64,000 bases of DNA from an uncultured Clostridia bacterium (lineage in GTDB: Bacteria; Bacillota; Clostridia; Christensenellales; UBA1242): positions 2,202 through 66,201 of the forward strand of contig CALVML010000006.1 of the NCBI GenBank assembly GCA_944345705.1, read 5' to 3'. The notes under the pieces are model-generated. The model saw only the letters and a program-made list of their open reading frames with translations, had not been told where the DNA came from and made no database searches. Below are positions 35,623 through 52,766 of this stretch, piece after piece. Every line of letters starts with the position of its first letter. The first letter of the stretch is position 1. The position numbers and the translations under genes were made by a program.

Positions 35623-35718
35623 AACTTGTATATCTAGACACTATTGACAGGATCAATCGAGAGAGATTTCAAAGGGAGATAGAGATTGCAAAAAAGTTAA
35701 TTGTCAAGGAGAAGTAAA

Positions 35719-36262: not shown

Positions 36263-36341
36263 TTTTTGGTGCTTAGTATGTTTTGCTGGGTTATTAAATT
36301 TTTTCAGTGGGAAACACAAAGATCAATAGAAATTTTTGAAT

Positions 36342-36380
36342 AAAAAAGGGGGACAATTTTGTCCCCCCTTTTATATTTTT
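36342..36380. terminator. Bidirectional Rho-independent terminator
   Basis: GGGGGAC-AATTTT-GTCCCCC flanked by an A run and a T run, between convergent genes. Confidence 0.8.
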
Positions 36381-36460
36381 GCAAATTTTAATGATTTTTG
36401 CTTGCAATTTGTACTTTTTTTGCGAACATATTTGCATTAAATGTCTTTATGTTGAATTCC

Positions 36461-38569: not shown

Positions 38570-38664
38570 AACTTTATTTTATCCTAAATTTATCTAAAAA
38601 TCAATTTATTTAATGTATTTTAATATATTTTAACAAAAAAATGGCAATTTCTGCCATTCTTTTT

Positions 38665-39834
38665 TTAACATAATTCAACATTGTAATCGTCATCAAAATA
38701 ATAGTTGTAGGTTGCAAGGTTTTGAGAATACTCATTTGCCTGTTCAATCTTTTCACCAGCAAAAGTATATTCAGTTGATTGAGATGTAGTTGTATATTTT
38801 CCTTCTTGAATATTGGCAATAATATCTTTAGGATTAACAGTAGATGCTTCTGCTCTTAAAGTGTATTTTTGGATACCATTATTTGTAATTTGATAAACTG
38901 TAATACTACTGTAATATATTCCATTATTTGCTACAGGAGTTCCGATACTGCACCAAATATCACCTTCAAGGGCGTTGTCAGCATCAATTGTTTGTATTAC
39001 AGTTTTGCCAAGGTCGGTGTTGTTTTCAATATCTTTCAAGGCAATTTCTGAATCTCTATAAGCAACAGAATAAGTAGCATCAGTTGCATTTCCTTTAATA
39101 ATATCTTGTACTGAATATGCTTGATTAAATGTTACTTTTCCAACTTTAAAATATCGAGTTGTGTCTGTATCATAGTATACTTTTACTTGTAATTCTTTTA
39201 TTTGATTATTATTGCTATTTGTAATCATCCATTCAGTGCTTGAAATATCATCAGCAGTGCCATTTCTTCCAATAAATTGTTTTGCTAAACTTTCCAAATG
39301 TGTTTCATTTAAGATTTGAGTAAACTCGTCAGCAAAATAGTTGATTTCGTCAACTTCGTCAACTTTGTCAATACTATCTGGAATGTCTTCATCACCAGGA
39401 TTTTCAGGATCGCCTGGATTTTCAGGATCATCTGGATCGGTAGGGTCAGAAGGGTCAGGATCGATAACAGGATCATCCGGATCAATGACAGGGTCATCAG
39501 GATCAATAACAGGGTCATCCGGATCAATAACAGGATCATCCGGATCAATAACAGGGTCATCAGGATCAATAACAGGGTCATCAGGATCAATAACAGGGTC
39601 ATCAGGTTCGTCTGGAAGAGGATTAACAATTCCTGGATCGTCTATGCTTGGATCGTCTTTATCAGGGTTACAACTTGATGTGCAACCTGCAAAGATAGAG
39701 ATAAGGCTTGCAATTAGAAGAACAGTAGCAATTTTAGCAAGTTTGTTTTTCTTGTGACTTTTTACAATGCCTCTATTTTTTTTCTTCTTTGTTTCAACTT
39801 TTGTTTCAACTTTTTCGAATTCGTTGTTTTCCAT
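38665..39834 (-). CDS. Lipoprotein with (DPDDPVI)x7 tandem repeat linker
   Basis: ATG 39834 lies 6 nt after AGGAGG. Lipobox SIFAGC. Seven heptad repeats, then a beta-rich C-terminal domain. Confidence 0.7.
   Translation of the reverse strand: MENNEFEKVETKVETKKKKNRGIVKSHKKNKLAKIATVLLIASLISIFAGCTSSCNPDKDDPSIDDPGIVNPLPDEPDDPVIDPDDPVIDPDDPVIDPDDPVIDPDDPVIDPDDPVIDPDDPVIDPDPSDPTDPDDPENPGDPENPGDEDIPDSIDKVDEVDEINYFADEFTQILNETHLESLAKQFIGRNGTADDISSTEWMITNSNNNQIKELQVKVYYDTDTTRYFKVGKVTFNQAYSVQDIIKGNATDATYSVAYRDSEIALKDIENNTDLGKTVIQTIDADNALEGDIWCSIGTPVANNGIYYSSITVYQITNNGIQKYTLRAEASTVNPKDIIANIQEGKYTTTSQSTEYTFAGEKIEQANEYSQNLATYNYYFDDDYNVELC
39457..39607 (-). repeat. In-frame 21-bp tandem repeat (about 7 copies)
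   Basis: GGATCAATAACAGGGTCATCA/C units on the + strand encode DPDDPVI on the - strand. Copies differ only at synonymous positions. Confidence 0.9.
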
Positions 39835-40049
39835 AAACAACCTCCTTAAATTTTTTTATTGCAATAACAAATGCATATTTCTACATTTATTATAGCAGAT
39901 ATAAATTAAATTTCAAGTGCTTTTTTAAAATTTGTCAAAATATTTTATGCTTTTACTCGCCATATTTGAATTTGGTTTAGTTTCTCCATCAATTCAAATT
40001 CTAATGTGTAAATATAGTTAATTTCATGCTGTCGGTTTGAGTTTTGCAC

Positions 40050-40208: not shown

Positions 40209-42317
40209 GTGAATATACAAAGGTTTGTCAATTTTCGATGGATATTCTATCCTTTTCTTGCCTGTCTATTTGGAGTGATTGTTGCGGGCAGGCTTTTTGC
40301 AAGTTCAATTGAAACCTTAATAATTGCGATTATATTTTTAAGTGTGCTGGCTGGTTTTCTTATATGGAAGAGGAAATACAAAATAATGCTCGCGTTATTT
40401 CTATCATGCTTCATAGGTTGCGGGTTATATTTTATAGGCTATTTTACTACAAAGCCGACTGACTATCAAGGGCAGGTGGCAGTCACTGGCAGAGTCAGTG
40501 ACAGCTTTGAAGAAAACGACTATGACTATGTTGTAATACTTGATAGTGTCACCATTGACGGCAAAGCGGAGAAGAACATAAAGGCATACATATCAAAGGG
40601 CGGACAAAAGGTATCAGTTGGAGACACCATTACATTTGAAAGTGAGATTGAGTCCGTTGATGTATTTACTCTCGGTTCATTCAATAGTGACTACTATAGA
40701 AACGGAGTTGGATACACAGCCGAGATTGCCAGCAAGGACCTTGTGATACTAGAAAGTGGGAAGGTGTGCATAGACGAGCAGATTCGCATGGCGATCAAAG
40801 AAAAGTTATATGAGAATATGACGCATGACAGTGCTTCTATTTCCTATGCTGTTCTTTTCGGCGACCAGTCGGGTATATCCTTTGAGATAAAGGGAGCCTA
40901 TCGCGATTCAGGCATAATTCATCTTTTAGCGGTATCCGGACTCAACATAAGTTTTTTAATAGCAATCATATTTGGTGGTCTAAAACTTTTAAAGTGCAAT
41001 AGATATGTAAATTTTGTTTTGACTTCCTTTATAATCATATTTTATTGTGTACTTTGTGGTATGACGCCGTCAGTCTTGCGAGCAGGGTTTATGGGTATCA
41101 TTATGATCATTGCCATGCTGTTTGGCAGGCGGTATGACTCACTCAATGCAATGGGCGTGGCTGGGTTTACAATACTTTTAATCAGTCCGCTTTCAGCCTT
41201 TGATGTAGGGTTTTTGATGTCTATTGCTTGCGTATGCGGAATAATATTGCTATATCCATTATTTTACAAATTTTTTGCCAAATTCTGTCCTAATTTAATT
41301 GCGCAGTACCTATCGATGTCTTTTTCGGCACAAGTGACCATATTGCCATTTTTGGCACTCTTTTCATCACAATTCAATCTTCTATTCTTTATGATCAATT
41401 TGATTGTTGTGCCACTTTTCTCGATTTTATATCCATTCCTTGTGTTTATGTCAGTGATAGTCTTTATCTTGCCATTTTTATCGCCACTTTTCAAACTTAT
41501 AGACTATGGTATGCAGCTTGTATTGATAATAGCAGGCATTTTTGCAAACTCATCACTTGTCGTCAACTTGTCGCCAATGTCGTTTGGAGTGATGTGCTTT
41601 TTCTTCCTGTTAATATTTGTGCTTGGGCAGTTTTTTATGGCAAAAAAGATAAGCAAGTGGGTGCTTTCTTGTGTGCTTATCATGGCGCTTTCGATAAACT
41701 ACGGCTTTTCCTATTTTGCTTCTAAAATGCAGGCGGGTGTATGCGTTTTGACAAGTTATGGCGATCAAGCGGTGATATTACAAAATACTTCAGGCGAAAG
41801 ATTGCTTGTTGGACAGACTTACATACTTTCTCGCTATATGAATAATCACAATGTCAAAAACTTTGATGGCTATGTTGCGTTTGAGTCTTTGACAAGCGGA
41901 CGCATTGAATACTTAAGTCAATACAATATCACAAGTTACATCGCACGCGAGGGTGACGAAAGCTATGGCAGCGTATTAGTAACGACCGAAAACGAACCTA
42001 TTAAACTTGGCGATTTTATCATATCTTATCTTGTCGTAGGGGATGATATTCTTGGAGTGCAAGTATATTTTGACGAAATAATGGTTTTTGTTGCAAATGA
42101 TGATGAAAGTGGATATAATATAGATTATTACAACTCTGTCTTTGACGCATTTCCGCCGTCACTCGTGGTGGCGGGCGAAAACGATATGCTTTGCAACGGA
42201 AATTACATATCATATTCAAGATATAAAAACGATTATTCGACCTTTGACTTTGCCTCTGATGGCAACCTGTATTTCAAACTTGATGGTCAATATTTCATTA
42301 TAAGGGGGCTTGATTGA
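40209..42317 (+). CDS. comEC: DNA internalization-related competence protein ComEC/Rec2
   Basis: DUF4131-like N-terminus and a competence domain with IIHLLAVSGLNISFL. The C-terminal domain lacks an HxHxDH motif. Confidence 0.85.
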   Translation: MNIQRFVNFRWIFYPFLACLFGVIVAGRLFASSIETLIIAIIFLSVLAGFLIWKRKYKIMLALFLSCFIGCGLYFIGYFTTKPTDYQGQVAVTGRVSDSFEENDYDYVVILDSVTIDGKAEKNIKAYISKGGQKVSVGDTITFESEIESVDVFTLGSFNSDYYRNGVGYTAEIASKDLVILESGKVCIDEQIRMAIKEKLYENMTHDSASISYAVLFGDQSGISFEIKGAYRDSGIIHLLAVSGLNISFLIAIIFGGLKLLKCNRYVNFVLTSFIIIFYCVLCGMTPSVLRAGFMGIIMIIAMLFGRRYDSLNAMGVAGFTILLISPLSAFDVGFLMSIACVCGIILLYPLFYKFFAKFCPNLIAQYLSMSFSAQVTILPFLALFSSQFNLLFFMINLIVVPLFSILYPFLVFMSVIVFILPFLSPLFKLIDYGMQLVLIIAGIFANSSLVVNLSPMSFGVMCFFFLLIFVLGQFFMAKKISKWVLSCVLIMALSINYGFSYFASKMQAGVCVLTSYGDQAVILQNTSGERLLVGQTYILSRYMNNHNVKNFDGYVAFESLTSGRIEYLSQYNITSYIAREGDESYGSVLVTTENEPIKLGDFIISYLVVGDDILGVQVYFDEIMVFVANDDESGYNIDYYNSVFDAFPPSLVVAGENDMLCNGNYISYSRYKNDYSTFDFASDGNLYFKLDGQYFIIRGLD

Positions 42318-43258
42318 AAACTTTAAAACAAAGACTAAAAAGCGGACTTGACAATTTCTATCTTCTTCAAGGCGAAGATAGTTATTTGTATGATAGGGCA
42401 CTTTCGATGATTAAAAAAGCTTGCAACATTTCCTTTCCTGATTTTAATTATCAGTTTTTTGACGATGAAAATTTTTCGGCAAACGCCCTTCGAGCAAGCC
42501 TCGAAAGTATGCCTTTCTCAGACGAAAAAAGATTGTCTGTTGTAAAAAACGTTGAAAAATTATCTGAAAACGACAAAAAAATCATCATATCCTATTGCGA
42601 AAATCCGCTTTCTTCAAGCGTGCTTGTGGTTTGCGACTATGCAAATAAATTTGATTTTTTAAAGCCCTATTCGCAGTTTGTAGATTGCAAACGCTTTGAT
42701 TATGCACTCGCAAAGGCAATTATTGTAAATGATTTCGCAAAATACAACAAGAAGATAAGCGAAGAGGCGATCACTGCTCTGTATGACAGTTGCAATGGCT
42801 ATCTTTCAAAGATTTCGCTTGAAATACAAAAAATATCCGCCTACCTTGGTGATGAGGAGTTTGTTACAAAACAGGTTGTCGACAACTTGACCAGCAAGGA
42901 TAGCGAATATATGGTTTTTGAACTTACTGAAAGTCTAGGCGCGAAGAAAACAAGTCGGGCAATCGAACTTTTAAACCTTATGCTTAAACAACAAGGACTT
43001 TTGGCTCTCATTACAAATCATTTTCGAAGACTATTTTTTATTTCCATTTCAGATCAAGACAACAAAACGCTTGCAAATCTTCTCGGTGTCAAGGAGTATG
43101 CAGTTGCCAAAATGCGCACGCAAGTTAAAAACTTTTCAAAAGTGCAACTTAAAAAGATCTATTCTCTCCTTGAAGAAGTTGATTATATGATAAAAAGTGG
43201 TGCAATGCTACAAGATACAGCATTAAATTATCTCGTCTTTTCAATACTTAATATATGA
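42314..43258 (+). CDS. holA: DNA polymerase III delta subunit HolA
   Basis: 314 aa. N-terminal ...FYLLQGEDSYLYDRAL... pattern and the conserved comEC-holA synteny. Start overlaps the comEC stop. Confidence 0.8.
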   Translation: MKTLKQRLKSGLDNFYLLQGEDSYLYDRALSMIKKACNISFPDFNYQFFDDENFSANALRASLESMPFSDEKRLSVVKNVEKLSENDKKIIISYCENPLSSSVLVVCDYANKFDFLKPYSQFVDCKRFDYALAKAIIVNDFAKYNKKISEEAITALYDSCNGYLSKISLEIQKISAYLGDEEFVTKQVVDNLTSKDSEYMVFELTESLGAKKTSRAIELLNLMLKQQGLLALITNHFRRLFFISISDQDNKTLANLLGVKEYAVAKMRTQVKNFSKVQLKKIYSLLEEVDYMIKSGAMLQDTALNYLVFSILNI

Positions 43259-43299
43259 TAAGGATATAACAAGGACAAAACTTAAATTACAATTTACAA

Positions 43300-43500
43300 A
43301 AATTCAGTGAAAATTTCATATAATATCTAGTCAGAATTTTTAAAAAAATCTAGTAAAATTTCAAGGAAAGTCTACCAAGTTTTAAATAAGAAATTGGCTC
43401 AGATTTTCAATTTGACTTTGCTCACTTAAATATAGAAATTTGTCAGATTTTAATTTATGTTTGGCTAGTTTTTAATAAGATAATTAGCCGTTTTTTCATA
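43300..43500 (+). repeat. Iteron-like array: about 8 degenerate direct repeats at roughly 21-22-bp spacing
   Basis: Recurrent (C)TAG/CAG-N-(A/T)TTTT(C/A)A cores at about 43309, 43335, 43355, 43377, 43402, 43445, 43466 and 43489. Confidence 0.5.
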
Positions 43501-44060
43501 AAAGCCTTATCAAGACTAATAAATTTATTTTTTCGAAATTAAGCAAACATAATTTAAAAATTTAAAACAGCATAGTTATGTTTTCATAACAATGTTATAT
43601 TTTTAGTTATTATTACCGAAAGAGAGTAGCTAAGTAACTTTTTCGAGCGCAAACTATTGCTTGTTTTCTTGTAGTTTGGTAATTCTTTGATATCTATTTG
43701 ACTTTACATAAAATCAAATTAAAACTAGCATAGTTATTAAAACATAATTATGCTAATTTTTAGATATGATTACTTTGATCTTTAAGTGCTTTAAGTATAT
43801 CTTTGCATGTATTTATTGTGAGAATATGATATTGTATTTTTAAGTAATCATAGATAATAATGCAGAAAAAAAATATCATTTGCTTTAATGTGCCGAGATT
43901 TTGAATATTTTGTGAAGCCGATCATGCATACTAATTCTGTTTTTTATTTTATCAAGTGTAGTTGAAAACTTACATAGTTATAAAAACATGACTATGTATA
44001 TCATTATCATCATCATTAAATGATTTTATAAACAATTTTAAAGCGTTGGAGGGTTAAATC

Positions 44061-44178
44061 GAAGTAAAACTTGCAAACTTATTTTGAAAAATATAGAGTT
44101 GAGAGAATTTATGAATTTAGTTTTTGACTCTACACAAAACTGATTTAAAACTTACATAGTTATGAAAACATAACTATG
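44061..44178 (+). repeat. About 118-bp direct repeat, copy 1
   Basis: GAAGTAAAACTTGCAAACTTATTTTGAAAAATATAGAGTTGAGAGAATTTATGAATTTAGTTTTTGACTC... ending in the palindrome. Near-identical copy at 44386-44502. Confidence 0.85.
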
Positions 44179-44385
44179 CTAGCTTTTAGTTATACTATGT
44201 TTTTTAGTTATGATTTCCGCAAGAGAGTGGTTAAGCCACTTTCTCGAGCGCAAGCTATTAACTGTTTTTGCTGGATAGTTATTAAAACATAACTATGTAA
44301 TATTATTAAATTTAATCTTTTAATGCACGAAATTTAATCTTTATTAAGCAAATTTGAAACGTTTTTTTGGTAGGGGGGGGGAACT

Positions 44386-44502
44386 GAAGTAAGCCCTGCA
44401 AACTTATTTTGAAAAATATGGAGTTGAGAGAATTTAAGAATTTAGTTTTTGACTTTACATAAAATCGATTAAAAGTAGCATAGTTATGAAAACATAACTA
44501 TG
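44386..44502 (+). repeat. About 118-bp direct repeat, copy 2 (preceded by a G9 tract at 44373-44381)
   Basis: GAAGTAAGCCCTGCAAACTTATTTTGAAAAATATGGAGTTGAGAGAATTTAAGAATTTAGTTTTTGACTT... ending in the palindrome. Confidence 0.85.
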
Positions 44503-44639
44503 TTACTTTTTTTATTTAGATATTTTGTTTTTAGTAATTTTGATGTAAGGTTTATCTATGGCAGTTAGTATGTAAAATTTCAAAAAAAGATATTGTTCGT
44601 ATAATATATTTGCTTTTTAATATGGATCTTTATTAAATT

Positions 44640-45018
44640 TATATTATCGGAAGCCGAACTTGCTTGCAAGGGTGAGGCTGATGGTTATACATACTATGTG
44701 ATGAGTATGCGTTAGCATACAAATTCGCCAGAATTTATAAAATTTTATGATAATAAAATTTTAACATCACTTAGTTTATATTATCGGAAGCCGAACTTGC
44801 TTGCAAGAGTGAGGCTGATGGTTATACATACTGTGTGATAAGTATGCGTTAGCATACAAATTCGCCAGAATTTATAAAATTTTATGATAATAAAATTTTA
44901 ACATCACATTGTTTATATTATCTGAAGTCGAACCAAGCGTGACGAAGTCGCATTTGAGTGAGACTGATGGTTATACATACTGTGATGGACATAATTTATT
45001 GTGTTTTTGCGTTTAGTA
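44640..45018 (+). repeat. Tandem array of a 137-bp structured repeat (2 full units + 1 divergent truncated unit)
   Basis: Units start with TATATTATCGG at 44640 and 44777 and with TATATTATCTG at 44914. Each unit holds hairpins CTTGC-TT-GCAAG, GTATGC-GTTA-GCATAC and TAAAATTTTAT..ATAAAATTTTA, within an ACTATGTGATG/CATCAC.TAGT closing repeat. Confidence 0.9.
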
Positions 45019-45066
45019 ATAACTTATAAGCCTTTCATAAATGTAGACATCGACATCAGTTTTCAT
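45013..45066 (-). CDS. Candidate 17-aa micro-ORF (MKTDVDVYIYERLISYY)
   Basis: ATG at 45066 lies 5 nt after AAAGGAGA, stop TAA at 45013-45015. Divergent from the XRE gene. No conservation evidence is available. Confidence 0.25.
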   Translation of the reverse strand: MKTDVDVYIYERLISYY

Positions 45067-45120
45067 ATTCATCTCCTTTTTGTTATTACCTATATCTAAT
45101 TATACATATTTTAAATATTT

Positions 45121-45148
45121 TTGCAAATAATTTCAATAGATGTAATAT
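45121..45148 (+). promoter_or_regulatory. Candidate promoter of the XRE gene
   Basis: TTGCAA (45121-45126), 16-nt spacer, TAATAT (45143-45148). Confidence 0.4.
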
Positions 45149-45183
45149 GCATACTTTAATTCTTAATAATGTAAAATAAATGC

Positions 45184-45507
45184 ATGAAAGAAATTGATAA
45201 AAAATACATAGGTCAAAGAATTGCAACTCTTAGAAATGCAAAAAAGATATCAGCTAGAAATATGAGTTTAGATTTAGGGCAGAGTAGTGAGTATATAAAT
45301 CAAATAGAAAACGGCAGGAATTTTCCGTCACTAGAGGGGCTTTTAAATATTTGCGAATATTTTAATATTTCTATTGCCGAATTTTTTGATGAACAAAATA
45401 CCTATCCTTTGCAATATAAACAACTGATTTCACAATTAAACAAGTTAGACAATAGTGAACTTGATCTCATCATCGAATTAGTAAAATTAATAACAAAAGA
45501 TAAATAG
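45184..45507 (+). CDS. XRE-family helix-turn-helix transcriptional regulator (107 aa)
   Basis: IGQRIATLRNAKKISARNMSLDLGQSSEYINQIENGRNFPSLEGLLNICEYFNISIAEFF is a classic HTH_3/Cro-C1 domain. Confidence 0.85.
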   Translation: MKEIDKKYIGQRIATLRNAKKISARNMSLDLGQSSEYINQIENGRNFPSLEGLLNICEYFNISIAEFFDEQNTYPLQYKQLISQLNKLDNSELDLIIELVKLITKDK

Positions 45508-45576
45508 ATAAAATAAAACAGATATTTGTTAGTTTTCAAATTAAAAATAATTAAAATAAAATCATTTTAAATTAAA

Positions 45577-45610
45577 AACAACATAGTTATTAAAACATAA
45601 CTATGTTGTT
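45577..45610 (+). terminator. Seventh palindrome copy acting as terminator of the XRE gene
   Basis: AACAACATAGTTAT-TAAA-ACATAACTATGTTGTT followed by TTTTGTTTT, about 70 nt after the stop codon. Confidence 0.65.
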
Positions 45611-45824
45611 TTTGTTTTATTAAGTTGTTTGATTTTTGACAGATAATGATTGATTTAGTGTATTTACAGTTACAAGTGGAACAATTTTTTAAATGTTCAA
45701 AAATAAATATTTTTGGTGAAATCAAAAGAAGTCGTCTTTAGGAGAATTCGATTTTGTCATAATTTGCCAGTTTTTTAGTTTTGCATTATTGTTTATTCAA
45801 AATGGATTTTTCTTTAAATATCTC

Positions 45825-45871
45825 TCTTACAATAGTAAGAATTGATTATTTTTTTTTTTACTATTGTGAGA
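45825..45871 (+). promoter_or_regulatory. Operator-like inverted repeat with a T11 tract upstream of the second XRE gene
   Basis: TCTTACAATAGTAA (45825-45838) pairs with TTACTATTGTGAGA (45858-45871) with one mismatch. T11 run at 45849-45859. Confidence 0.45.
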
Positions 45872-45881
45872 AAATAACGTC

Positions 45882-46088
45882 ATGAACAACAAATTTAAAG
45901 AAATTCTTAAATCATTAAGAATAGAAAACAATGTTACTCAGCCACAACTTGCTACCGCAATAGGAGTAAGCAATGGTTTAATAAGTCTATGGGAAAATGG
46001 CTTGCGTGAACCGACAATGTCGAATTTGATCGTGCTAGCCAAATTTTTTCATGTAAGCATAGACTATTTAGTTGGGCTTGAAGATTAA
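45882..46088 (+). CDS. XRE-family helix-turn-helix transcriptional regulator (68 aa)
   Basis: LKSLRIENNVTQPQLATAIGVSNGLISLWENGLREPTMSNLIVLAKFFHVSIDYLVG is an HTH_3 domain only. Confidence 0.85.
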   Translation: MNNKFKEILKSLRIENNVTQPQLATAIGVSNGLISLWENGLREPTMSNLIVLAKFFHVSIDYLVGLED

Positions 46089-46268
46089 GATGATTTCTGC
46101 ATACCTGTATTAAAACATTTTTATTAACATATATAACATTATCAAATTTTAAATCTTTTGATTTCAAATATATAATACCAAAAAAGAAAAGACAATGTCA
46201 AACCATTTCTTACATTTGTAAGAATTTTTTTATAATATTAAAAAGTGATAGGGGGGGGAATAATATAT

Positions 46269-46838
46269 ACTATGTGATGTTAAAATTTTATGATCATAAA
46301 ATTTTAATAAATTCTGGCGAATTTGTATGCTAACGCATACTTATCACATAGTATGTATAACCATCAGCCTCACCCTTGCAAGCAAGTTCGGCTTCCGATA
46401 ATATAAACAATGTGATGTTAAAATTTTACTATCATAAAATTTAATAAATTCTGGCGAATTTGTGTGCTAATGCACACTCATCACATAGTATGTATAACCA
46501 TCAGTCTCACTCAAATGCGATTTTATCGCGCTTGGTTCGGCTTCCGATAATATAAACAATGTGATGTTAAAATTTTACTATCATAAAATTTTATAAATTC
46601 TGTCGAATTTGTGTGCTAACGCATACTCATCACATAGTATGTATAACCATCAGCCTCACCCTTGCAAGCAAGTTCGGCTTCCGATAATATAGACTATATG
46701 ATGTTAAAATTTAAGCAAGTTAAATTTTAAATTTGCTAAACGCAAAAACACAATAAATTGTGTTCATCACAGTATGTATGACCATCAGTCTCACTCAAAT
46801 GCGATTTCATCGCGCTTGGTTCGACTTCCGATAATATA
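46269..46838 (-). repeat. Inverted-orientation tandem array of the same structured repeat (4 units, 137-149 bp)
   Basis: On the + strand: units at 46269-46405, 46406-46554, 46555-46691 and 46692-46838 (divergent). They are the reverse complement of the 44.64-kb units. Preceded by a G8 tract at 46251-46258. Confidence 0.9.
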
Positions 46839-46909
46839 AAAACTGTATAAGTATATAAAAAATATGATCTTATCATTTTTTTATTATAATCTTAACTGAA
46901 AACATTTAT

Positions 46910-48553
46910 TTATAGGTTGTTTTCGTGGTCAGGGGGCAGTTGTTTTATGCTCTGTCTTTCTTTTTGACTTAAAATTTCGGCGAGCTGGCTTTCGAGTTTT
47001 TGCTGAGATTTTGCTTCTTTTTGGTCTTCATTTTTTAAAAGTGTGTGGATATGTTTGATTTCTTCATCAAGTTTTTGATGGTATGTTTGATAGAATAAAG
47101 ATACTTCTTGTTCGCTAAAATTATCCATTAAAAAGTTTTCAGTGAAGGCGTCGATCAACTTCTCAAGTATTTGCATTTGATAAGATTTTTGATAATCTGG
47201 CGACCTTTCTACTTCATCAGATGCAAGTTTGACTTTTGTGTCGATAAGATCGTTAAGAATTGCATTTTTATCGAAGGACTTTTCTATGGTTTCTATAAAG
47301 CTGTCATACTTGCATAGGGCTTTGAGATTTTCATCGATGGCAGGACCGTTTTTCTTTGATACAGCCGTGCGTCTTCTATAAAAACTAGCGTGAGTGTCAA
47401 TTTTTATGTCTTTTTTGTCGCCCTCTAGATATATGCAATATTTTCCGTTATCGAAGAGTAAAAAATCATATTTATTATTATTTGTGTTTAAAAAATATTG
47501 TCCTATTGCATGAGAGGGTGAGAATTCATCTTGAAAGGCTTGAAATTTGTTTTGTGTAATAAAATCAAGTGTGGCAGAATCTGCTGTAACAAACTGCAAT
47601 TTGTTGTTTACTATCTCCACATAACCATAGTCGCAGGTGAATATTATTTTAGAAAAAGTCTTGTTCAATAAGTTATGAGTTTGAAAAAGAATTTTATCTT
47701 CCAGTTGCGCTAATTGTATTTGGACATTTTGATCAAAAAACTGTGTTCTTTTATGGGTTTCAATGTCTTTCGCTCTCTTTTCTTTATCTTTTTGTTTTGC
47801 TTCTTGCAAAAATTTATCAACATATTTGCTGTATAAATCTTCGAGCAACTCATTTTCTTCCTGCAGTTGACTTTCGCTTAAAGTGTTTCGAAGTTTTTGA
47901 TAGTAGGCTTGAAAGGCCTCTTTTTGTGCATACTGCGATCTTGTAGGATATGGAGTAGTTGTGAATTCTGCTAAAGACAAAGCAAATTTTTGTCTTATAT
48001 ATTTAGTTATAGTATCTTTATTATATCCTGTATGTTCCTTTAAGCACTGCAGGGTGTACTTTTTCGATTGTAGATAGCTTTTTGCCTTATTATAGATATT
48101 CTCGTATTGATCTTTTGAAACTTGCCCAGTAGAATTTTTGTCTATATAATTAACTTGGCTTGCGTTTAGGTTTTGTAGAAATAACCAGCCTGTTCTATCT
48201 ATGCAGATCGACAAATTTCGTTCTTTATTTTTAAATAATTCAAGATAAAAATCGTTGTCGACGCTTCTTATAAAAAGCTTGCCTGTCTTTTTAAAACTAT
48301 CTAAATCGTCATCAATGACATATCGATTAAAGCAATCAAGATAAGCTTGGCTTGTTCTTTCATAAAATGAGATATTATCCAAAGAAAAAGGTGTTGTTTC
48401 AAGCATAATCACTCCATGCTCGCTATAGTCAAGTAAAATAGAGTTTGAAAAAGGTTGATATATTCCGTATGGATAGTAAACTTTGTCTTGTTTATAACAA
48501 AGTTTGCCTTTTAATAATTCCGCCAGCTTTTTTTCAGTTTTGCTTTGTGCCAT
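46910..48553 (-). CDS. Hypothetical 547-aa protein, paralog B of a tandem pair
   Basis: Shares colinear blocks with the upstream gene (YYQKLRNTLSESQLQEENELLEDLY vs FYEKLRATLSQEELDRENNLLEKSY; FTCDYGYVEIVNN vs YTCNYGYAYINN; LLFDNGKYCIYLEGD vs LLYSNDEYCIYIADR). No known catalytic motif recognised. Confidence 0.7.
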   Translation of the reverse strand: MAQSKTEKKLAELLKGKLCYKQDKVYYPYGIYQPFSNSILLDYSEHGVIMLETTPFSLDNISFYERTSQAYLDCFNRYVIDDDLDSFKKTGKLFIRSVDNDFYLELFKNKERNLSICIDRTGWLFLQNLNASQVNYIDKNSTGQVSKDQYENIYNKAKSYLQSKKYTLQCLKEHTGYNKDTITKYIRQKFALSLAEFTTTPYPTRSQYAQKEAFQAYYQKLRNTLSESQLQEENELLEDLYSKYVDKFLQEAKQKDKEKRAKDIETHKRTQFFDQNVQIQLAQLEDKILFQTHNLLNKTFSKIIFTCDYGYVEIVNNKLQFVTADSATLDFITQNKFQAFQDEFSPSHAIGQYFLNTNNNKYDFLLFDNGKYCIYLEGDKKDIKIDTHASFYRRRTAVSKKNGPAIDENLKALCKYDSFIETIEKSFDKNAILNDLIDTKVKLASDEVERSPDYQKSYQMQILEKLIDAFTENFLMDNFSEQEVSLFYQTYHQKLDEEIKHIHTLLKNEDQKEAKSQQKLESQLAEILSQKERQSIKQLPPDHENNL

Positions 48554-48562
48554 ATTTCTCCT

Positions 48563-50170
48563 TTAAAGTTCATTTTTATGATATATTTCTTGCTCAAAGT
48601 TTTTATTATAAATTGTCTTAGCCTTTTCTTCAAGGGCTTGTTCGTCAAATGTTTGTTTATGATTTTTATTTTGAGAGTAGGTTTTGATAGATTTTTCAAT
48701 TTCTTGATTTAATTCTTTATAAAAATTTTCTATCTCATCATTTTGGCAGTATTGTGTTAAATATTCAGAGATAAAAGATTGGGTTAATAGTTTATATTGT
48801 TGTTTGTCATAGTCATTTAAGTTGTCGATATCAATTATAAAACCGAGTTCGCGCATTTTGTCTTTAATAAGTTGCTCTTTCAATTTTTCAATAATTGAAG
48901 CGGTATTATATTTCTTTTTTAAGTTTTCTTTAAGTGTATATATAAAATAGTTAAAACTTGTAAGTTGTTGTAATGTTTGGTCATCAAGTTGTGTGTCGTT
49001 CACTGCGCCATCGTTTTTAAGATATGAATCAAAAAAATGTTTTTTTGTAGAACAACAGATACTTAAAAAAGGATTTTCATTCTTTCTATCAGCGATATAT
49101 ATGCAATACTCATCATTGCTATATAGCAGTATAGTGCAGTTGTCAGAATAACACGACTTGTATCTTTCACCTACGGCATCAAGTTGCGAAAATTCACTCT
49201 CTATTGAATGCCATTTTTTTATTTCTTTATCATCAAGATTAGATTTACTTGATGTTTCAAGACAGAGCCCTAAGTTATTTATATATGCATAGCCATAATT
49301 ACAAGTATACAATGGATATACAATGTCATTAAAAATATCGTTTTCTCTTATGCAGGGTTTTTCGTCAAAATCTTGATAGGTATCCATTTGGCTTAAATAT
49401 TCAAGTTGATTTTTTCTTGATTCTTGTAATCTTTCTTTTAAATTTTCAATTGTATCTGTTTGTTCCTTTTGTTTTAAAGTAATTTCTGCTTTATATGACT
49501 TTTCTAATAAATTGTTTTCCCTATCAAGTTCTTCTTGAGAGAGAGTTGCACGCAATTTTTCATAAAAGATTTTTATTAGTTCAAATTTTTTTTCATCTTT
49601 ATAGACAGTATCAAACTTTATGTTGGCAAGCAAATTAGCGTATGCTTCTCGCGTAGAGACTAAAAGATTTTCTTTTGTATAGCCAATAAATTTCTTTATT
49701 TCATCTAAAGCTGAAACTTGAGACTTTAAACAGTTTTGAAACATATCAACAGCATCTTTTGTTCTTAAAGAATTTGTTAAAAACTCTTGTTTTTCTTCTT
49801 TTGTAGCATCTTTAATTTCAAACTCTTGTCGATTTACAAGTTTAATATGTCCAAATTGAGATAATACAAAAGAGATTTTATTTTGATAGTTATATAATTC
49901 ATAGAAATACATTTTTGCATAATTGCCTGAGGTTATAATATTATCGCTTTTTTCAAATTCGTCAATTATGTCATCTATAACTATTCCATCAAATTGTTTA
50001 ATATAATACTCATCATCTCTCAAATATGTAAAAATAGAAAAGATCATATCTGATACTTTAATAACTCCATATTTATTTGCTTCCACGATGATTCGGTAAG
50101 ACTCGTCTGACATTATCATTTTACCCAAACTTGCATCTATTAGCTTCTGTTCATATTTTCCTATTGCCAT
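48563..50170 (-). CDS. Hypothetical 535-aa protein, paralog A of a tandem pair
   Basis: See paralog B. The gap to the downstream gene is 9 nt (operon). RBS AGAGG. Very AT-rich coding sequence. Confidence 0.7.
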   Translation of the reverse strand: MAIGKYEQKLIDASLGKMIMSDESYRIIVEANKYGVIKVSDMIFSIFTYLRDDEYYIKQFDGIVIDDIIDEFEKSDNIITSGNYAKMYFYELYNYQNKISFVLSQFGHIKLVNRQEFEIKDATKEEKQEFLTNSLRTKDAVDMFQNCLKSQVSALDEIKKFIGYTKENLLVSTREAYANLLANIKFDTVYKDEKKFELIKIFYEKLRATLSQEELDRENNLLEKSYKAEITLKQKEQTDTIENLKERLQESRKNQLEYLSQMDTYQDFDEKPCIRENDIFNDIVYPLYTCNYGYAYINNLGLCLETSSKSNLDDKEIKKWHSIESEFSQLDAVGERYKSCYSDNCTILLYSNDEYCIYIADRKNENPFLSICCSTKKHFFDSYLKNDGAVNDTQLDDQTLQQLTSFNYFIYTLKENLKKKYNTASIIEKLKEQLIKDKMRELGFIIDIDNLNDYDKQQYKLLTQSFISEYLTQYCQNDEIENFYKELNQEIEKSIKTYSQNKNHKQTFDEQALEEKAKTIYNKNFEQEIYHKNEL

Positions 50171-50348
50171 TATAAACCTCTATACAAATAGTACCATAAT
50201 TTTTAAAAAAGTCAATAAAGAATAAATATAATTATTTCTTAATAAAATTATATTTTAAATTTCTATAAAATATTTTTTAGTAATAAGAAGTACAATTTCT
50301 ATTTGCAATTTTTGATAAAATATGCTATTGTTAAAGTTAGGAGATAAA

Positions 50349-51662
50349 ATGTACAAGCCAATTGTTGCCGTTGTTGGCAGACCAAATGTCGGCAAAAGCA
50401 CTTTCTTTAATAGGGTGTGCGGCAGGAGAATAAGTATAGTTGATGACACGCCGGGCGTTACGCGCGACAGGCTTTATGCTGAAGCAAATTGGCAGGGTTA
50501 CACCTTTTCACTTGTGGATACTGGCGGTATTGATAGGACAAGCAGTGATGAGTTTCAAAATGACATAAAACAGCAGGCAATCCTTGCAATTCAAGAGGCA
50601 GATGTCATTGTGTTTATGGTTGACGGCAAGAGCGGTCTTACAACAAACGACTTTGAAGTTTCACGCATTTTGCATAAGTCAAATAGGCCTATTGTGCTTG
50701 TCGTAAACAAACTCGATAATTTTGAAATAGAAAACACCTATGAGTTTTATAATCTTGGCCTTGGTGATCCTTATCCACTTTCACTTGCGCAAGGAAAGGG
50801 GCTAGGCGATATCTTGGACGAAATTGTAAAACACTTTAAGGATATTGATTTAGAAAAGGAAGATATAAATGCCATAAAAGTTGCAATCGTTGGCAGACCA
50901 AATGTCGGCAAAAGTTCTCTCATCAACAGGCTGGTCAATAAAGAGCGAGTTGTAGTCAGCGATATTGAAGGCACAACGCGTGACAGCGTATATGTTCCAT
51001 TTAGATATGATAGACAAGATTTTGCTCTCATTGATACGGCAGGACTTCGCAAACAAAAGGTTGTGGATAATGGCACTATTGAGTCCTACAGCGTGCTTCG
51101 CACTATGAGCGCAATAGACGATTGCGATATTGCACTTATTGTGGTAGATGGGGGAAAGGATAAGATAACAGAACAAGATGTCAAGGTGGCGGGATATGTC
51201 CATGAAAGTGGAAAACCTTCAGTTATAGTTGTAAACAAGTGGGACATTAAGAGTAGAGATAAAAACTCCTATTTAAAGATGCTCCAAAGTGAACTATCCT
51301 TTATGAGTTACTTTAATGTGGTCTATGTTTCAGCATTGACAGGAGAAGGACTTGGACAGATCATGAAGCAGGCTCTAATAAGTTTCCAAAACGCATCAAA
51401 ACGCATACAAACAAGCGTGCTTAATGATTTTCTTCATGAAGCAATCTTGTATTTTGAGCCTCAAGCTCGAAGCGGAAATAGGGCAAAGATAAAATACATT
51501 ACTCAAACTTCCACCAATCCGCCAACTTTCGTAATCTTTGTCAATGACGCAAAACTAATAAATTTTTCTTATAAGCGATATTTAGAAAATAAACTAAGAG
51601 AGAGTGTGGACTTTTCTGGTACACCGATTAAGCTTGTTTTCAAGGGAAAAGGAGATGAATAA
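50349..51662 (+). CDS. der: Ribosome-associated GTPase Der (EngA)
   Basis: Two tandem G-domains (GRPNVGKSTFFNR and GRPNVGKSSLINR) plus a KH-like C-terminus. ATG 50349 follows AGGAGA. Confidence 0.95.
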   Translation: MYKPIVAVVGRPNVGKSTFFNRVCGRRISIVDDTPGVTRDRLYAEANWQGYTFSLVDTGGIDRTSSDEFQNDIKQQAILAIQEADVIVFMVDGKSGLTTNDFEVSRILHKSNRPIVLVVNKLDNFEIENTYEFYNLGLGDPYPLSLAQGKGLGDILDEIVKHFKDIDLEKEDINAIKVAIVGRPNVGKSSLINRLVNKERVVVSDIEGTTRDSVYVPFRYDRQDFALIDTAGLRKQKVVDNGTIESYSVLRTMSAIDDCDIALIVVDGGKDKITEQDVKVAGYVHESGKPSVIVVNKWDIKSRDKNSYLKMLQSELSFMSYFNVVYVSALTGEGLGQIMKQALISFQNASKRIQTSVLNDFLHEAILYFEPQARSGNRAKIKYITQTSTNPPTFVIFVNDAKLINFSYKRYLENKLRESVDFSGTPIKLVFKGKGDE

Positions 51663-51677
51663 AAAGTGATTGATATA

Positions 51678-52766
51678 ATGTATTTCATACTTGTTGCCTT
51701 TATATCATATTTTCTTGGCACTATAAATTTTTCCAAGATTCTCTCTTGGTATGTAAAACATAAGGATATAACAAAGATGGGCAGTGGCAATCCAGGGACA
51801 ATGAATATGCTTCGTTCCTATGGTTTTGGCATTGCTTTCGCAACATTTTTAGCAGAAGTTATCAAATCAGGACTTACCTGCCTTGTTTTTAAATTGATTT
51901 TTCCACAATACGATCAAGTCATATATTTCGTGTGTGCGATATTCTTGCTACTCGGCAACAATTTTCCTGTATGGTCTAAGTTTAAGGGTGGCAAAGGCGT
52001 TGCAACCTTTGCAGGTGTCTTTTTATTTTCAAATCTTTGGTATGTGGCACTTGCATGGTTTGTCATTTGCTTCATACTCTTTATGTTTATCGAATATGCA
52101 AGCGTAATTTCTTTCACGTATATTGGCGGACTTTCTATCGCTTATACAATATATGCTTTTGTAAGCCAAATCTATTATGCATGGCTTGTAGTTGCAATCA
52201 TTTGGGTTATGTATTTGATTATGCTTGCAAGACATCATGCAAACATTAAAAGGCTGTTTACTCACACTGAAAATAAAATTGATTTCAAAGCAAAACTTGC
52301 AAAAGTCTTCAAGCATAAAAAAGGCGAAATAATTATTGATGAAGAATTTGTTGAGCATGCACCTGAAGCAGAGATAATTGTGACGCAACTCGAGAAAAAA
52401 GAAGAAAAACAAGAAGAGCAAGTGGATGAAATCGTAGAGAGTAGAGATGCGGAAAGTATAGATCTCGTTGAAGATGAAAGTGCAAATGATGATATCATAA
52501 TTGATGATGATCAAGGTACTATTTTACAAGAAAACAGCGTTGAAAATACTGAGCTAGAGAAGATGTTAAAAACTAAGCAAGAAGAAATAAATTCACAACC
52601 TATATCGTCAAATGAAAGCGGAATATCTAATTCGTTTGACAGTGACATATTAAGAGACAATGACGACCAAATCAATAGTCAAGATGAAATAAACAAAGAT
52701 GTTGCCGACGATGGCACACATATAGATCAATCACACAATACTAATGTTGACAGTGATAGTAAATAG
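51678..52766 (+). CDS. plsY: Glycerol-3-phosphate acyltransferase PlsY with an approximately 160-aa acidic C-terminal extension
   Basis: GSGNPGTMNMLR and KGGKGVAT motifs in the N-terminal ~200 aa. The C-terminal half is Glu/Asp/Ser/Asn-rich and low-complexity. An alternative GTG start lies at 51666. Confidence 0.85.
   Translation: MYFILVAFISYFLGTINFSKILSWYVKHKDITKMGSGNPGTMNMLRSYGFGIAFATFLAEVIKSGLTCLVFKLIFPQYDQVIYFVCAIFLLLGNNFPVWSKFKGGKGVATFAGVFLFSNLWYVALAWFVICFILFMFIEYASVISFTYIGGLSIAYTIYAFVSQIYYAWLVVAIIWVMYLIMLARHHANIKRLFTHTENKIDFKAKLAKVFKHKKGEIIIDEEFVEHAPEAEIIVTQLEKKEEKQEEQVDEIVESRDAESIDLVEDESANDDIIIDDDQGTILQENSVENTELEKMLKTKQEEINSQPISSNESGISNSFDSDILRDNDDQINSQDEINKDVADDGTHIDQSHNTNVDSDSK

What the first reader, a model, noticed from the sequence alone, without database searches (positions are those of the whole stretch)
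43259..50321. About 7-kb AT-rich accessory island between holA and der
The island has 1.9 kb with no ORF of 60 aa or more, which is rare in bacteria, filled with several repeat families. It also has two XRE regulators bracketed by inverted repeat arrays, homopolymer tracts (G9, T11, G8), and two paralogous ~540-aa proteins without recognisable domains. It is flanked by conserved housekeeping genes. The architecture (regulators + unknown effector pair + repeats) resembles defence or mobile-element hotspots. No integrase, transposase or known defence domain is visible, so the system appears uncharacterised.
Basis: partly seen in the sequence, partly recalled or inferred. Interest (0 to 1): 0.7.

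Follow-up and report, generated by a model that had tools for sequence, protein, structure and literature searches.

The report
Variable holA–der island: orphan genes, repeats
The 7-kb AT-rich stretch is a real, strain-variable insertion hotspot in an uncultured gut Clostridia bacterium; it carries two orphan paralogous genes, two small repressor-type genes and a lot of repeat DNA, and nothing shows that these parts form one defence system.

Summary
The segment 43259-50321 has 27.7% GC against 35.4% for the rest of the window. It contains the window's largest ORF-free gap (1,925 nt), two XRE genes between inverted repeat arrays, G9/T11/G8 tracts, and two 24%-identical proteins of about 540 aa with no domain hit.

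Comparison with 31 related genomes shows that comEC-holA-der-plsY-spoIVA is conserved. holA and der lie 155 bp or less apart in 16 of them. The others hold different cargo in that gap, so this is a hotspot.

A near-conspecific MAG has lost both large genes and lacks the XRE genes and the arrays. The large proteins belong to a very rare orphan family (10 hits among 1.84 billion representatives). They are internally duplicated, have no fold match, evolve fast and are mosaic.

The "inverted repeat arrays" are not specific to the island. They are copies of a dispersed, modular, hairpin-rich element of about 140 nt, found on 24 human-gut metagenome contigs and elsewhere in this window. The element has a promoter-like end, and one copy has truncated a 58-aa gene.

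The left 1.4 kb is a locally amplified unit built around a terminator-like palindrome. No integrase, no known defence model and no phage or plasmid match was found. I see a hotspot patchwork, not one system.

The parts
42314..43258 (+). holA (DNA polymerase III delta), left core flank
   Evidence: Pfam DNA_pol3_delta and DNA_pol3_delta_C. It is syntenic in 31 relatives.
43259..44637 (.). Left non-coding block at 24% GC. It is made of locally amplified modules: D10 copies at 43600-43667 and 44201-44268, and D8 copies at 44045-44149 and 44370-44474. Each module is followed by the terminator-like palindrome.
   Evidence: Repeat families D3-D5, D7, D8 and D10. No SD-led small ORF. The same modules occur in different copy number in the near-conspecific MAG L003, 7036-7851. 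Units fold with z -2.8 to -4.2.
43571..44502 (+). Six copies of the palindrome CATAGTTAT-N6-ATAACTATG, at 43571, 43729, 43973, 44155, 44274 and 44479. Most have an A-run before and a T-run after, so they look like bidirectional intrinsic terminators.
   Evidence: Seven hits in the window against 0.08 expected. The terminator scan picks 44155-44178 and 44471-44510 on the + strand, 44479-44502 on the - strand, and 45573-45614. Outside this locus (window, L003, L209) only one looser match was found in 1.5 Mb of fetched loci.
44373..44381 (+). G9 tract inside D8 copy b
   Evidence: The homologous positions in other copies are GGAGGG or GGGGGAGGG, so this is a variable G-rich segment and has no evident coding or promoter-spacer role.
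44638..45030 (+). Left array of the dispersed ~140-nt element. Units are 44638-44774, 44775-44911 and 44912-~45030. The third has the long apical hairpin and the terminator-type 3' module.
   Evidence: Covariance-model scores are 164.6, 162.3 and 50.3 bits. RNA folds of units 1 and 2 give -37 to -39 kcal/mol, z about -5.
45013..45066 (-). 17-codon remnant (MKTDVDVYIYERLISYY) of a 58-aa gene divergent from XRE1, cut off by the third repeat unit
   Evidence: It is the only SD-led small ORF in the non-coding parts. The intact 58-aa version is in strain contig L209, which has only one repeat unit there. The intact protein has no Pfam hit.
45184..45507 (+). XRE1, 107-aa Cro/CI-type HTH protein
   Evidence: HTH_19 at 8e-10 and HTH_3 at 9e-8. 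It is RstR-like but below the NCBIfam cut-off.
45582..45605 (+). Seventh copy of the palindrome; the likely XRE1 terminator
45849..45859 (+). T11 tract between 13-nt inverted repeats (CTTACAATAGTAA / TTACTATTGTGAG), just upstream of XRE2
   Evidence: The tract is 2 nt shorter and interrupted in strain contig L209.
45882..46088 (+). XRE2, 68-aa HTH-only protein
   Evidence: HTH_3 at 5e-15. XRE2-like genes at 35-46% identity (tblastn) sit upstream of der in L027, L029, L033 and L037; L028 has two about 3 kb upstream of der.
46172..46201 (-). Best sigma-70-like match in the island (TTGACA-18-TG-TATTAT), pointing antisense into the 3' end of XRE2
   Evidence: 11 of 12 matches. Consensus match only.
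46251..46258 (+). G8 tract abutting the inner end of the right array
46270..46840 (-). Right array of the dispersed element: four units at 46270-46407, 46408-46556, 46557-46693 and 46694-46840. They are inverted relative to the left array.
   Evidence: Covariance-model scores are 166.5, 133.7, 159.5 and 82.3 bits.
46910..48553 (-). big1, a 547-aa orphan protein
   Evidence: No family hit. Two clusters in 5.8 billion. AF2 pLDDT 82. No fold match. dN/dS 0.29. Mosaic between alleles.
48563..50170 (-). big2, a 535-aa paralogue of big1
   Evidence: 24% identity, E 3e-22. Two clusters in 5.8 billion. dN/dS 0.44-0.51.
50188..50215 (-). Promoter-like site for big2-big1 (TTGACT-16-TG-TACTAT), divergent from der
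   Evidence: Consensus match only.
50322..51662 (+). der (engA), right core flank
   Evidence: Pfam. 97% identical to L003.

Best explanation
The segment is the current occupant of a recombination hotspot between holA and der in an uncultured, spore-forming gut Clostridia lineage. It is a patchwork of three independent components and not one system.

1. **A two-gene operon, big2-big1.** It encodes an orphan, lineage-restricted family of cytoplasmic proteins. Each protein is an internal duplication of a beta-rich domain followed by a helical bundle that ends in a long helix. The genes are real, since they are under purifying selection. They are also dispensable, fast-evolving and recombining. 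Their function is not shown. My best guess is a non-enzymatic binding or scaffold protein involved in a strain-specific interaction.
2. **A Cro/CI-style regulatory remnant.** This is XRE1 with a divergent 58-aa gene, now truncated, plus XRE2. XRE2 belongs to a group of small HTH genes that recur upstream of der in relatives.
3. **Repeat DNA.** (a) Tandem, inverted arrays of a genome-wide, modular, hairpin-rich element of about 140 nt. One end carries a sigma-70-like promoter (TTGCAA-17-TAATAT) and some versions carry an intrinsic terminator. The element spreads or amplifies in AT-rich intergenic DNA and here has cut a gene. (b) A local amplification of units that end in one shared bidirectional terminator palindrome. 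These units may be small non-coding transcription units.

Shown: the hotspot, the variability, the dispersal and structure of the element, the gene truncation, and the orphan status and duplication of the proteins. Inferred: that exchange happens by homologous recombination in the flanking core genes and by repeat-mediated deletion or amplification, and that the element acts as a portable terminator/promoter.
For: **Hotspot**
- comEC-holA-der-plsY-spoIVA is conserved. The holA-der gap is 155 bp or less in 16 of 31 relatives and 0.6-5.4 kb with unrelated cargo in 15.
- Cargo seen in the gap: a 3-4-gene operon of Pfam-less proteins with N-terminal hydrophobic segments in 7 loci; XRE triplets in 3; a duplicated LmuA-like MBL pair in L030.

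**Strain variation**
- L003 (Der 97%) lacks window 47011-50192, so both large genes are gone apart from the last 36 codons of big1. It has no XRE genes and no arrays, and it carries a 424-aa lipoprotein-like gene instead.
- In L001 the gene pair is followed by a BspA-type LRR gene.
- L209 has 1 repeat unit where the window has 3, and an intact 58-aa gene.

**Dispersed element**
- It occurs on 24 gut-metagenome contigs, often at contig ends or in tandem, with several contigs per sample at similar coverage.
- The covariance model recovers 30 or more copies, including window 25675-25777 (81.9 bits), outside the island.
- Of 43 consensus pairs, 97.5% of cells are paired, and 5 pairs show compensatory changes against 1.9 in shuffles, with 0 of 500 shuffles reaching that number.
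- The promoter end lies 25-130 nt upstream of co-oriented genes in 7 loci.

**Proteins**
- 10 hits among 1.84 billion representatives.
- The N- and C-terminal halves are homologous (hhalign 85%, E 6.6e-6).
- dN/dS is 0.29-0.51 against 0.04-0.14 for der and holA.
- big1 is 30-80% identical to its L001 allele over residues 1-360 and 97-100% beyond.

**No mobile-element signature**
- There is no integrase or transposase domain in the four island proteins and no phage or plasmid similarity.
Against: - No expression data exist, so the promoters, terminators and any RNA products are only predicted.
- Only three or four alleles of the locus within the species were seen, mostly on short contigs that break at the repeats.
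- The mechanism of cargo exchange was not observed.
- The repeats, the XRE genes and the large genes could still interact. For example, the element's promoters face into big1 in antisense and I could not test that.
- Conserved G·U pairs and the better folding of one strand (-39 against -29 kcal/mol) hint at an RNA-level role that 'selfish repeat' does not explain.
- The function of big1/big2 remains a guess.
Confidence: 0.6

Rival explanations
1. The island is an uncharacterised anti-phage or anti-MGE defence locus. big1/big2 would be sensor/effector proteins under XRE control, parked in a defence hotspot.
For: - The hotspot hosts a defence-like gene pair in relative L030 (LmuA-type MBL, PADLOC E 1e-19; NCBIfam Avs1a and 6A-MBL below cut-off).
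- A distant homologue, P0005, sits next to a Dcm/ThaI restriction-modification pair. P0006 sits near TraG/VirD4 and DUF4417 genes.
- The pattern of fast evolution, a mosaic variable N-terminal two-thirds and strain-specific loss is typical of conflict genes.
- Both XRE proteins give generic hits to defence-associated HTH models such as capH and control proteins.
Against: - No PADLOC, Pfam, NCBIfam or PHROG hit for big1, big2 or four distant homologues.
- No conserved catalytic-type residues. The invariant columns are M1, G47, R66, Y71, F87, L106 and S115.
- No fold match at E < 1e-3.
- No conserved XRE partner across homologues.
- P0007 and P0008 sit beside housekeeping genes (pda-ftsK-miaB-recA) with no defence neighbours.
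Confidence: 0.15
2. The island is the decayed remnant of a prophage, satellite or integrative element. The XRE1 / 58-aa / XRE2 module would be its lysogeny-type switch, and big1/big2 would be moron or exclusion genes.
For: - XRE1 and a divergent small gene form a CI/Cro-like layout.
- Both XRE proteins hit PHROG repressor families (phrog_8, down to 4e-22) and are RstR-like below the NCBIfam cut-off.
- The segment is AT-rich relative to the genome.
Against: - No integrase, excisionase, structural or replication gene.
- No flanking direct repeats.
- No DNA or protein match in 50,697 phage and 72,556 plasmid records.
- big1 and big2 have no PHROG hit.
- XRE2-like genes are long-term residents upstream of der in several relatives.
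Confidence: 0.12
3. The 1.9-kb ORF-free block and the arrays are a cluster of small regulatory RNA genes. They would be tandem sRNAs, each ending at the shared terminator, plus a three-hairpin structured RNA that also sits in 5' leaders. This does not exclude the best explanation.
For: - Six terminator-like palindromes lie 119-244 nt apart, with A- and T-runs.
- The D8 and D10 units fold with z -2.8 to -4.2.
- The element's sense strand folds at z about -5, with conserved G·U pairs and compensatory changes.
- The three-hairpin module abuts the start codon of a 342-aa gene at window 25781. A diverged copy lies in the der leader of L008.
Against: - No Rfam match even at E ≤ 1.
- No convincing promoters in front of the D8 and D10 units (and inspection).
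- Covariation is modest and concentrated in one helix.
- The L033 copies of the promoter module keep the sequence but not the hairpin.
- The D8, D10 and palindrome units are confined to this locus in one species, so there is no comparative support.
Confidence: 0.2
4. The XRE segment is an invertible or phase-variable switch. It would flip by recombination between the inverted arrays, or be tuned by the G9/T11/G8 tracts.
For: - Arms of 109-245 nt at 91-97% complementarity flank 1.3-1.7 kb.
- Tract lengths and array copy numbers differ between strains.
Against: - No recombinase gene in or next to the island.
- The only independent contig spanning a junction (L209) has the same orientation as the window.
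- None of the tracts lies in an ORF or in a promoter spacer of suitable length (inspection).
Confidence: 0.05

Closest known systems
Chromosomal integration / hypervariable hotspots between core genes (for example E. coli defence-island hotspots, PMC10121019; Listeria hypervariable hotspots, PMC3556495)
   Same: The position is fixed between conserved syntenic core genes. Relatives have empty sites. Different genomes carry different cargo, including a defence-like pair in L030. The segment is AT-rich and varies at strain level.
   Different: In E. coli the cargo is usually carried on recognisable mobile elements (PMC10121019 abstract). Here no integrase, att site or phage/plasmid similarity was found. 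The content is dominated by non-coding repeats and orphan genes.
Pneumococcal BOX / RUP / SPRITE interspersed repeats and similar small bacterial repeats (PMC3049150; reviews PMC3184786, PMC10969869)
   Same: The element is short (about 140 nt), non-coding, intergenic and multi-copy. It is modular, with interchangeable internal modules and tandem reiteration, and has extensive predicted secondary structure. It can disrupt genes and is likely to affect neighbouring gene expression. It is restricted to a narrow lineage.
   Different: There is no match to any Rfam family (BOX/RUP/SPRITE sequences themselves were not compared), and I saw no terminal inverted repeats. One end carries an outward sigma-70-like promoter and some versions carry an intrinsic terminator. 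The copies here form two inverted tandem arrays of 3 and 4 units.
Correia (NEMIS) elements of Neisseria, from my own knowledge and the reviews above
   Same: It is a dispersed element that can supply promoters or terminators to adjacent genes and is found at gene starts.
   Different: Correia elements have terminal inverted repeats and a TA target duplication. This element has neither clearly. Both of its ends show the same TTTATATT motif.
Cro/CI-type XRE repressor modules of phages, RM controller proteins and defence regulators (capH)
   Same: These are small HTH_3 proteins. XRE1 has a divergent small gene, and palindromes lie nearby.
   Different: No partner gene (CapP, RM genes, toxin or integrase) is present. 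All hits are to the generic HTH domain and fall below family-specific cut-offs.

Membership tests
Genomic island in a core-genome hotspot | Flanking core genes are syntenic across relatives | tested here: met
   comEC-holA-der-plsY-spoIVA was recovered by tblastn in 31 loci.
Genomic island in a core-genome hotspot | Relatives have an empty site | tested here: met
   The gap is 155 bp or less in 16 of 31 loci and holds only a terminator and a promoter.
Genomic island in a core-genome hotspot | Different cargo at the same site, and variation within the species | tested here: met
   L001, L003 and L209 against the window.
Integrative mobile element (prophage, ICE/IME, transposon) | Integrase, recombinase or transposase gene | tested here: not met
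   Pfam and PHROG on all four island proteins found only HTH domains. The neighbours are housekeeping genes.
Integrative mobile element (prophage, ICE/IME, transposon) | Flanking att-type direct repeats, or similarity to known phages or plasmids | tested here: not met
   No direct repeat pair brackets the island. There was no blastn or tblastn match in the phage and plasmid collections.
Known anti-phage defence systems (PADLOC-DB v2) | Component proteins match the system's models | tested here: not met
   big1, big2 and P0005-P0008 gave 0 families. The XRE proteins gave only generic HTH hits.
MITE | Terminal inverted repeats | tested here: not met
   The unit ends (TTTATATTATCGG... and ...AACATCACATAG) are not inverted copies of each other (alignment A3).
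MITE | Target-site duplication | tested here: inconclusive
   Every copy is followed by TTTATATT, which is the same as its own start. This could be a fixed target or part of the unit.
MITE / interspersed repeat | Short, non-coding, many dispersed copies | tested here: met
BOX-like modular interspersed repeat | Modular build with variable internal modules, plus stable secondary structure | tested here: met
   Short or long apical hairpin; three-hairpin or terminator-type 3' module. Folds have z about -5. 97.5% of cells are paired. This is a functional resemblance only; no sequence homology was shown.
Any Rfam 15 RNA family | Covariance-model match | tested here: not met
   0 hits at gathering thresholds in the whole window and 0 hits at E ≤ 1 in 43000-50500.
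Type I toxin-antitoxin tandem repeats (Ibs/Sib-like) | Small hydrophobic ORF with a ribosome-binding site in each unit | tested here: not met
   The 20-21-aa ORFs in two units lack an SD. In the other units the ORF is 6 aa. The SD-led small-ORF scan found none in the arrays.
CRISPR array | Short repeats separated by unique spacers | tested here: not met
   The units are contiguous, 137-149 nt long, with no spacers.
Invertible DNA switch | Both orientations observed, and a cognate recombinase | tested here: inconclusive
   Inverted arms are present. No recombinase was found. The one independent junction (L209) has the same orientation.
XRE / Cro-CI HTH regulators | HTH_3-type domain above the Pfam threshold | tested here: met
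   XRE1: HTH_19 at 38.9 bits against a cut-off of 30.2. XRE2: HTH_3 at 55.6 bits against a cut-off of 23.

The most novel reading that the evidence does not exclude
big1/big2 could be founding members of a new conflict (anti-phage or anti-MGE) protein family, built from a duplicated beta-domain plus helical-bundle module with a recombining specificity region. The accompanying ~140-nt element could be a new structured RNA / portable terminator-promoter cassette that rewires genes in gut Clostridia.
Probability: 0.15. Interest if true: 0.65.

Novelty: new member of a known kind. Interest (0 to 1): 0.4.

Why it matters
The main value is as a corrective. What looks like a self-contained 'regulators + effectors + repeats' system is a hotspot patchwork. 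That kind of check is needed before mining uncultured-genome islands for new defence systems.

Two by-products may be useful.
- **An orphan protein family.** It has about 10 representatives among 1.84 billion proteins, a confident AF2 model and no structural neighbour. It is under selection, mosaic, and variably present between strains.
- **An unannotated interspersed element of human-gut Clostridia.** It is modular and hairpin-rich, breaks metagenome assemblies, truncates genes, and places promoter- and terminator-like sequences next to genes. Annotating it would improve MAG assembly and annotation, and it could explain differences in expression between strains.

Tried and rejected
- **Rfam.** The gathering search on the window and the E ≤ 1 search on the island both found nothing. 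There are no tRNA or tmRNA genes that could serve as an integration target.
- **Loose DNA pattern.** The strict pattern gave 0 viral hits.
- **Third protein search.** The word-index search with the family alignment added nothing.
- **First AF2 run.** The run with 4 sequences was unusable (pLDDT 51). The 10-sequence run was good, but Foldseek against PDB and BFVD gave only insignificant small-barrel and coiled-coil hits. PDB sequence searches also found nothing.
- **Type I toxin idea.** I considered that the repeat units encode Ibs/Sib-like toxins (20-aa ORF MVIHTVMDIIYCVFAFSNNL). I rejected it because there is no SD and the ORF is truncated to 6 aa in most units.
- **Other promoter and motif ideas.** I considered a sigma-28 promoter (CCGATAA) and rejected it on spacing. 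I considered integron attC sites and a K-turn and rejected both on inspection of the motifs.
- **SipW/TasA naming.** I first read the common operon in relatives' gaps as SipW/TasA-like. Pfam gave no support, so I do not name it.
- **L030 paralogue pairs.** They are not related to big1/big2 (HMM search).

Full report
**Observation.** The segment between holA (42314-43258) and der (50322-51662) is as described.
- GC is 0.277 against 0.354 for the rest of the window, and the left non-coding part is at 0.242.
- 43259-45183 (1,925 nt) has no ORF of 60 aa or more. This is by far the largest such gap in the 64 kb. The second largest (742 nt) is also in the island.
- An SD-anchored scan for small ORFs of 8 aa or more found a single 17-codon ORF in all the non-coding parts.
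- The G9, T11 and G8 tracts are at 44373-44381, 45849-45859 and 46251-46258.
- Two HTH_3/HTH_19 proteins (107 and 68 aa) lie between two inverted arrays of a 137-149-nt unit. There are 3 units on + and 4 on -, with arms 91-97% complementary.
- Two proteins on the - strand, of 547 and 535 aa, are 24% identical over their full length (E 3e-22). Neither has a Pfam, PHROG, PADLOC or NCBIfam hit.

**Organism and synteny.**
- Der retrieves uncultured gut Clostridia MAGs. L003 (CALVNK01) is 97% identical, L004 is 76%, and about 50 others are 65-70%.
- tblastn shows that comEC-holA-der-plsY-spoIVA is conserved.
- Both genes were found in 31 loci. In 16 of them holA and der are 155 bp or less apart, and the spacer holds just a hairpin terminator and a promoter-like stretch. 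That is presumably the ancestral state.
- The other 15 loci have 0.6-5.4 kb of unrelated content:
  - a 3-4-gene operon of Pfam-less proteins with N-terminal hydrophobic segments in 7 loci;
  - three tandem XRE2-like genes plus a divergent HTH gene in L029, L033 and L037;
  - in L030, two copies of an MBL-fold (PADLOC LmuA model, E 1e-19) plus 369-aa gene pair.
- So the gap is a hotspot, and in at least one relative it holds defence-like genes.

**Variation close to the window.**
- L003 shares the first ~400 nt after holA at 96%. It shares the local repeat modules in different number.
- L003 has no XRE genes and no arrays, and it carries a 424-aa lipoprotein-like gene. It keeps only the last 36 codons of big1 directly before der, which amounts to a deletion of window 47011-50192.
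- L001 (big2 89%, big1 75%) has the gene pair followed by a convergent BspA-type LRR gene and no array.
- L002 has big1 at 99.6% but big2 at 86%.
- L209 matches the XRE segment at 97%, but it has one repeat unit where the window has three. It also has an intact 58-aa gene divergent from XRE1. In the window the third unit has cut that gene to 17 codons (45013-45066).

**The large proteins.**
- Each has only two 90%-identity clusters in 5.8 billion. The window-type alleles have 78 and 70 member sequences, so they are common in public read sets.
- A full HMMER profile search of 1.84 billion representatives gave 10 hits. Four are full-length distant homologues (595-756 aa, E 1e-26 to 1e-30) that share the N-terminal motif MA-S-NE-KLA--L-GK.
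- Three of those four carry an extra C-terminal domain of about 200 aa that also has no Pfam or PDB match.
- With 10 sequences AF2 gives pLDDT 82 and pTM 0.64. The model shows two successive modules, each a beta-rich domain of about 100 residues followed by a helical bundle ending in a helix of more than 50 residues. hhalign confirms that the two halves are homologous (85%, E 6.6e-6).
- Foldseek against PDB and BFVD found nothing at E < 1e-3.
- dN/dS is 0.29 for big1 and 0.44-0.51 for big2, against 0.14 for holA and 0.04 for der. They are real genes under relaxed or diversifying constraint.
- big1 is mosaic. Between the window and L001, residues 1-360 are 30-80% identical and residues 360-547 are 97-100% identical.
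- Homologue contexts vary:
  - P0005 lies next to a Dcm/ThaI RM pair;
  - P0006 lies between an ABC transporter and MarR/DegV, near TraG and DUF4417;
  - P0007 and P0008 lie beside pda-ftsK-miaB-recA. P0008 is in the same MAG as L029 but at another locus.
- Nearby HTH genes in those loci are not orthologues of XRE1 or XRE2. I conclude that this is an orphan, stand-alone family of unknown function.

**The 'inverted repeat arrays'.**
- Read on the opposite strand, the conserved 5' part of the unit is CCTCAC-CCT-TTGCAA-GCAAGTTCGGCTTCCGA-TAATAT, a sigma-70-like promoter.
- The same module sits 34 nt upstream of a 780-aa lipoprotein gene in L019. It also occurs as 3-4 tandem ~58-nt copies between the XRE triplet and der in L033, where the sequence is kept but the hairpin is not.
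- A strict pattern for this module hit 24 human-gut metagenome contigs and no viral contig. Many hits are at contig ends, several are tandem, and several contigs per sample have similar coverage, so it is a multi-copy dispersed element.
- It is modular. Domain 1 is a hairpin with a short or long apical stem. It is followed either by a three-hairpin module closed by TGTGATG/CATCACA or by a module containing an intrinsic terminator (ACACAATTTATTGTGTTTTTGCG).
- Units fold at z about -5 on one strand (-39 kcal/mol against -29 on the other), with conserved G·U pairs.
- On 16 full units, 43 consensus pairs are 97.5% paired. Five pairs show compensatory changes, mainly in one helix, against 1.9 in shuffles, and 0 of 500 shuffles reach that number.
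- A covariance model found 30 or more copies. One is a solitary three-hairpin module at window 25675-25777, abutting the start of a 342-aa gene. Another is a diverged copy in the der leader of L008.
- Either end often lies just upstream of a co-oriented gene, but convergent arrangements also occur.
- I saw no terminal inverted repeats, and the same TTTATATT flanks both ends.
- In behaviour it most resembles BOX-type interspersed repeats (PMC3049150), with no Rfam match.
- Units within the island are 96-100% identical to each other, and the dispersed full-length copies on other metagenome contigs are 85-92% identical to them. This points to local amplification or gene conversion.

**The left 1.4 kb.**
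- It is built from two modules (D10 and D8), each followed by the palindrome CATAGTTAT-N6-ATAACTATG. Most copies have an A-run before and a T-run after, so they look like bidirectional terminators. The seventh copy terminates XRE1.
- Copy number differs between the window and L003.
- Outside this locus the palindrome was essentially absent from 1.5 Mb of fetched loci.
- The units fold well, but they have no clear promoters and no comparative support. Whether they are small RNA genes is open.

**Tests for mobility and known systems.**
- There is no integrase or transposase domain and no bracketing direct repeat.
- The phage and plasmid collections gave no match for the island DNA or for P0006.
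- No PADLOC model matches beyond generic HTH hits.
- There is no tRNA gene.

**Verdict.** 'Accessory hotspot' is supported. 'One uncharacterised system resembling defence' is not. The locus is best read as a hotspot patchwork of an orphan gene pair, a repressor-module remnant and two kinds of repeat DNA, one genome-wide and one local. The defence reading keeps about 15% probability. Interest is moderate.

Noticed in passing
window 25675-25777 (+): A solitary copy of the element's three-hairpin module (81.9 bits with my covariance model) ends 3 nt before the ATG of a 342-aa Pfam-less, hydrophobic (probably membrane) protein gene (25781-26809). No Shine-Dalgarno is visible, so this may be a structured 5' leader.
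   Followed up: partly
window 13622-13778 (-): A weaker hit (30.7 bits) has the same architecture: three hairpins, including GTGTGC/GCACAC, enclosed by a different 10-bp closing stem (AATCGGAAGC/GCTTCCGATT). It lies inside a 728-nt intergenic region and may be a related element family.
   Followed up: no
L008 9250-9380 (+): A diverged three-hairpin module lies directly upstream of the RBS of der in a relative whose holA-der gap holds the Pfam-less operon.
   Followed up: no
L033 9640-9870 and 9395-9600: Three to four tandem ~58-nt copies of the promoter-like module lie between an XRE triplet and der. Just upstream are two copies of a G/C-rich motif (GTTTGGGGGATGACGGAGA...), which is unusual for this AT-rich genome.
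   Followed up: partly
L030 4638-10001: In a relative, the same holA-der gap holds two tandem copies of a gene pair: an MBL-fold protein (PADLOC LmuA 1e-19; RT-associated MBL 3e-17) plus a 366-369-aa unknown. This is a candidate defence module, duplicated.
   Followed up: partly
window 33593-39840: Just upstream of comEC there is a block of Pfam-less ORFs (184, 494, 702 and 391 aa) plus a 115-aa Phage_holin_1 hit (35915-36262). GC falls to 0.28-0.31 around 38.2-39.2 kb. This may be a second accessory region.
   Followed up: no
window 23390-23399: A G10 tract, the longest homopolymer G run in the window, lies about 55 nt into the ORF 23335-24366 (+). It could be a slippage-prone site.
   Followed up: no
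window 51666-52766 (plsY): PlsY is 366 aa, but the G3P_acyltransf domain covers only residues 13-197. The D/E/S/N-rich tail is poorly conserved: plsY as a whole is 72% identical to L003 while der is 97%.
   Followed up: no
window 46172-46201 (-): The strongest sigma-70-like match in the island (TTGACA-18-TG-TATTAT) points antisense into the 3' end of XRE2.
   Followed up: no
whole window: There is no tRNA gene and not one Rfam family at gathering threshold in 64 kb of a Firmicute chromosome.
   Followed up: no
P0005, P0006, P0008 (C-terminal ~200 aa): Distant homologues of big1/big2 carry a conserved extra C-terminal domain (motifs SEGNxGA and LDDMNIRGSQIW) with no Pfam or PDB sequence match.
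   Followed up: partly
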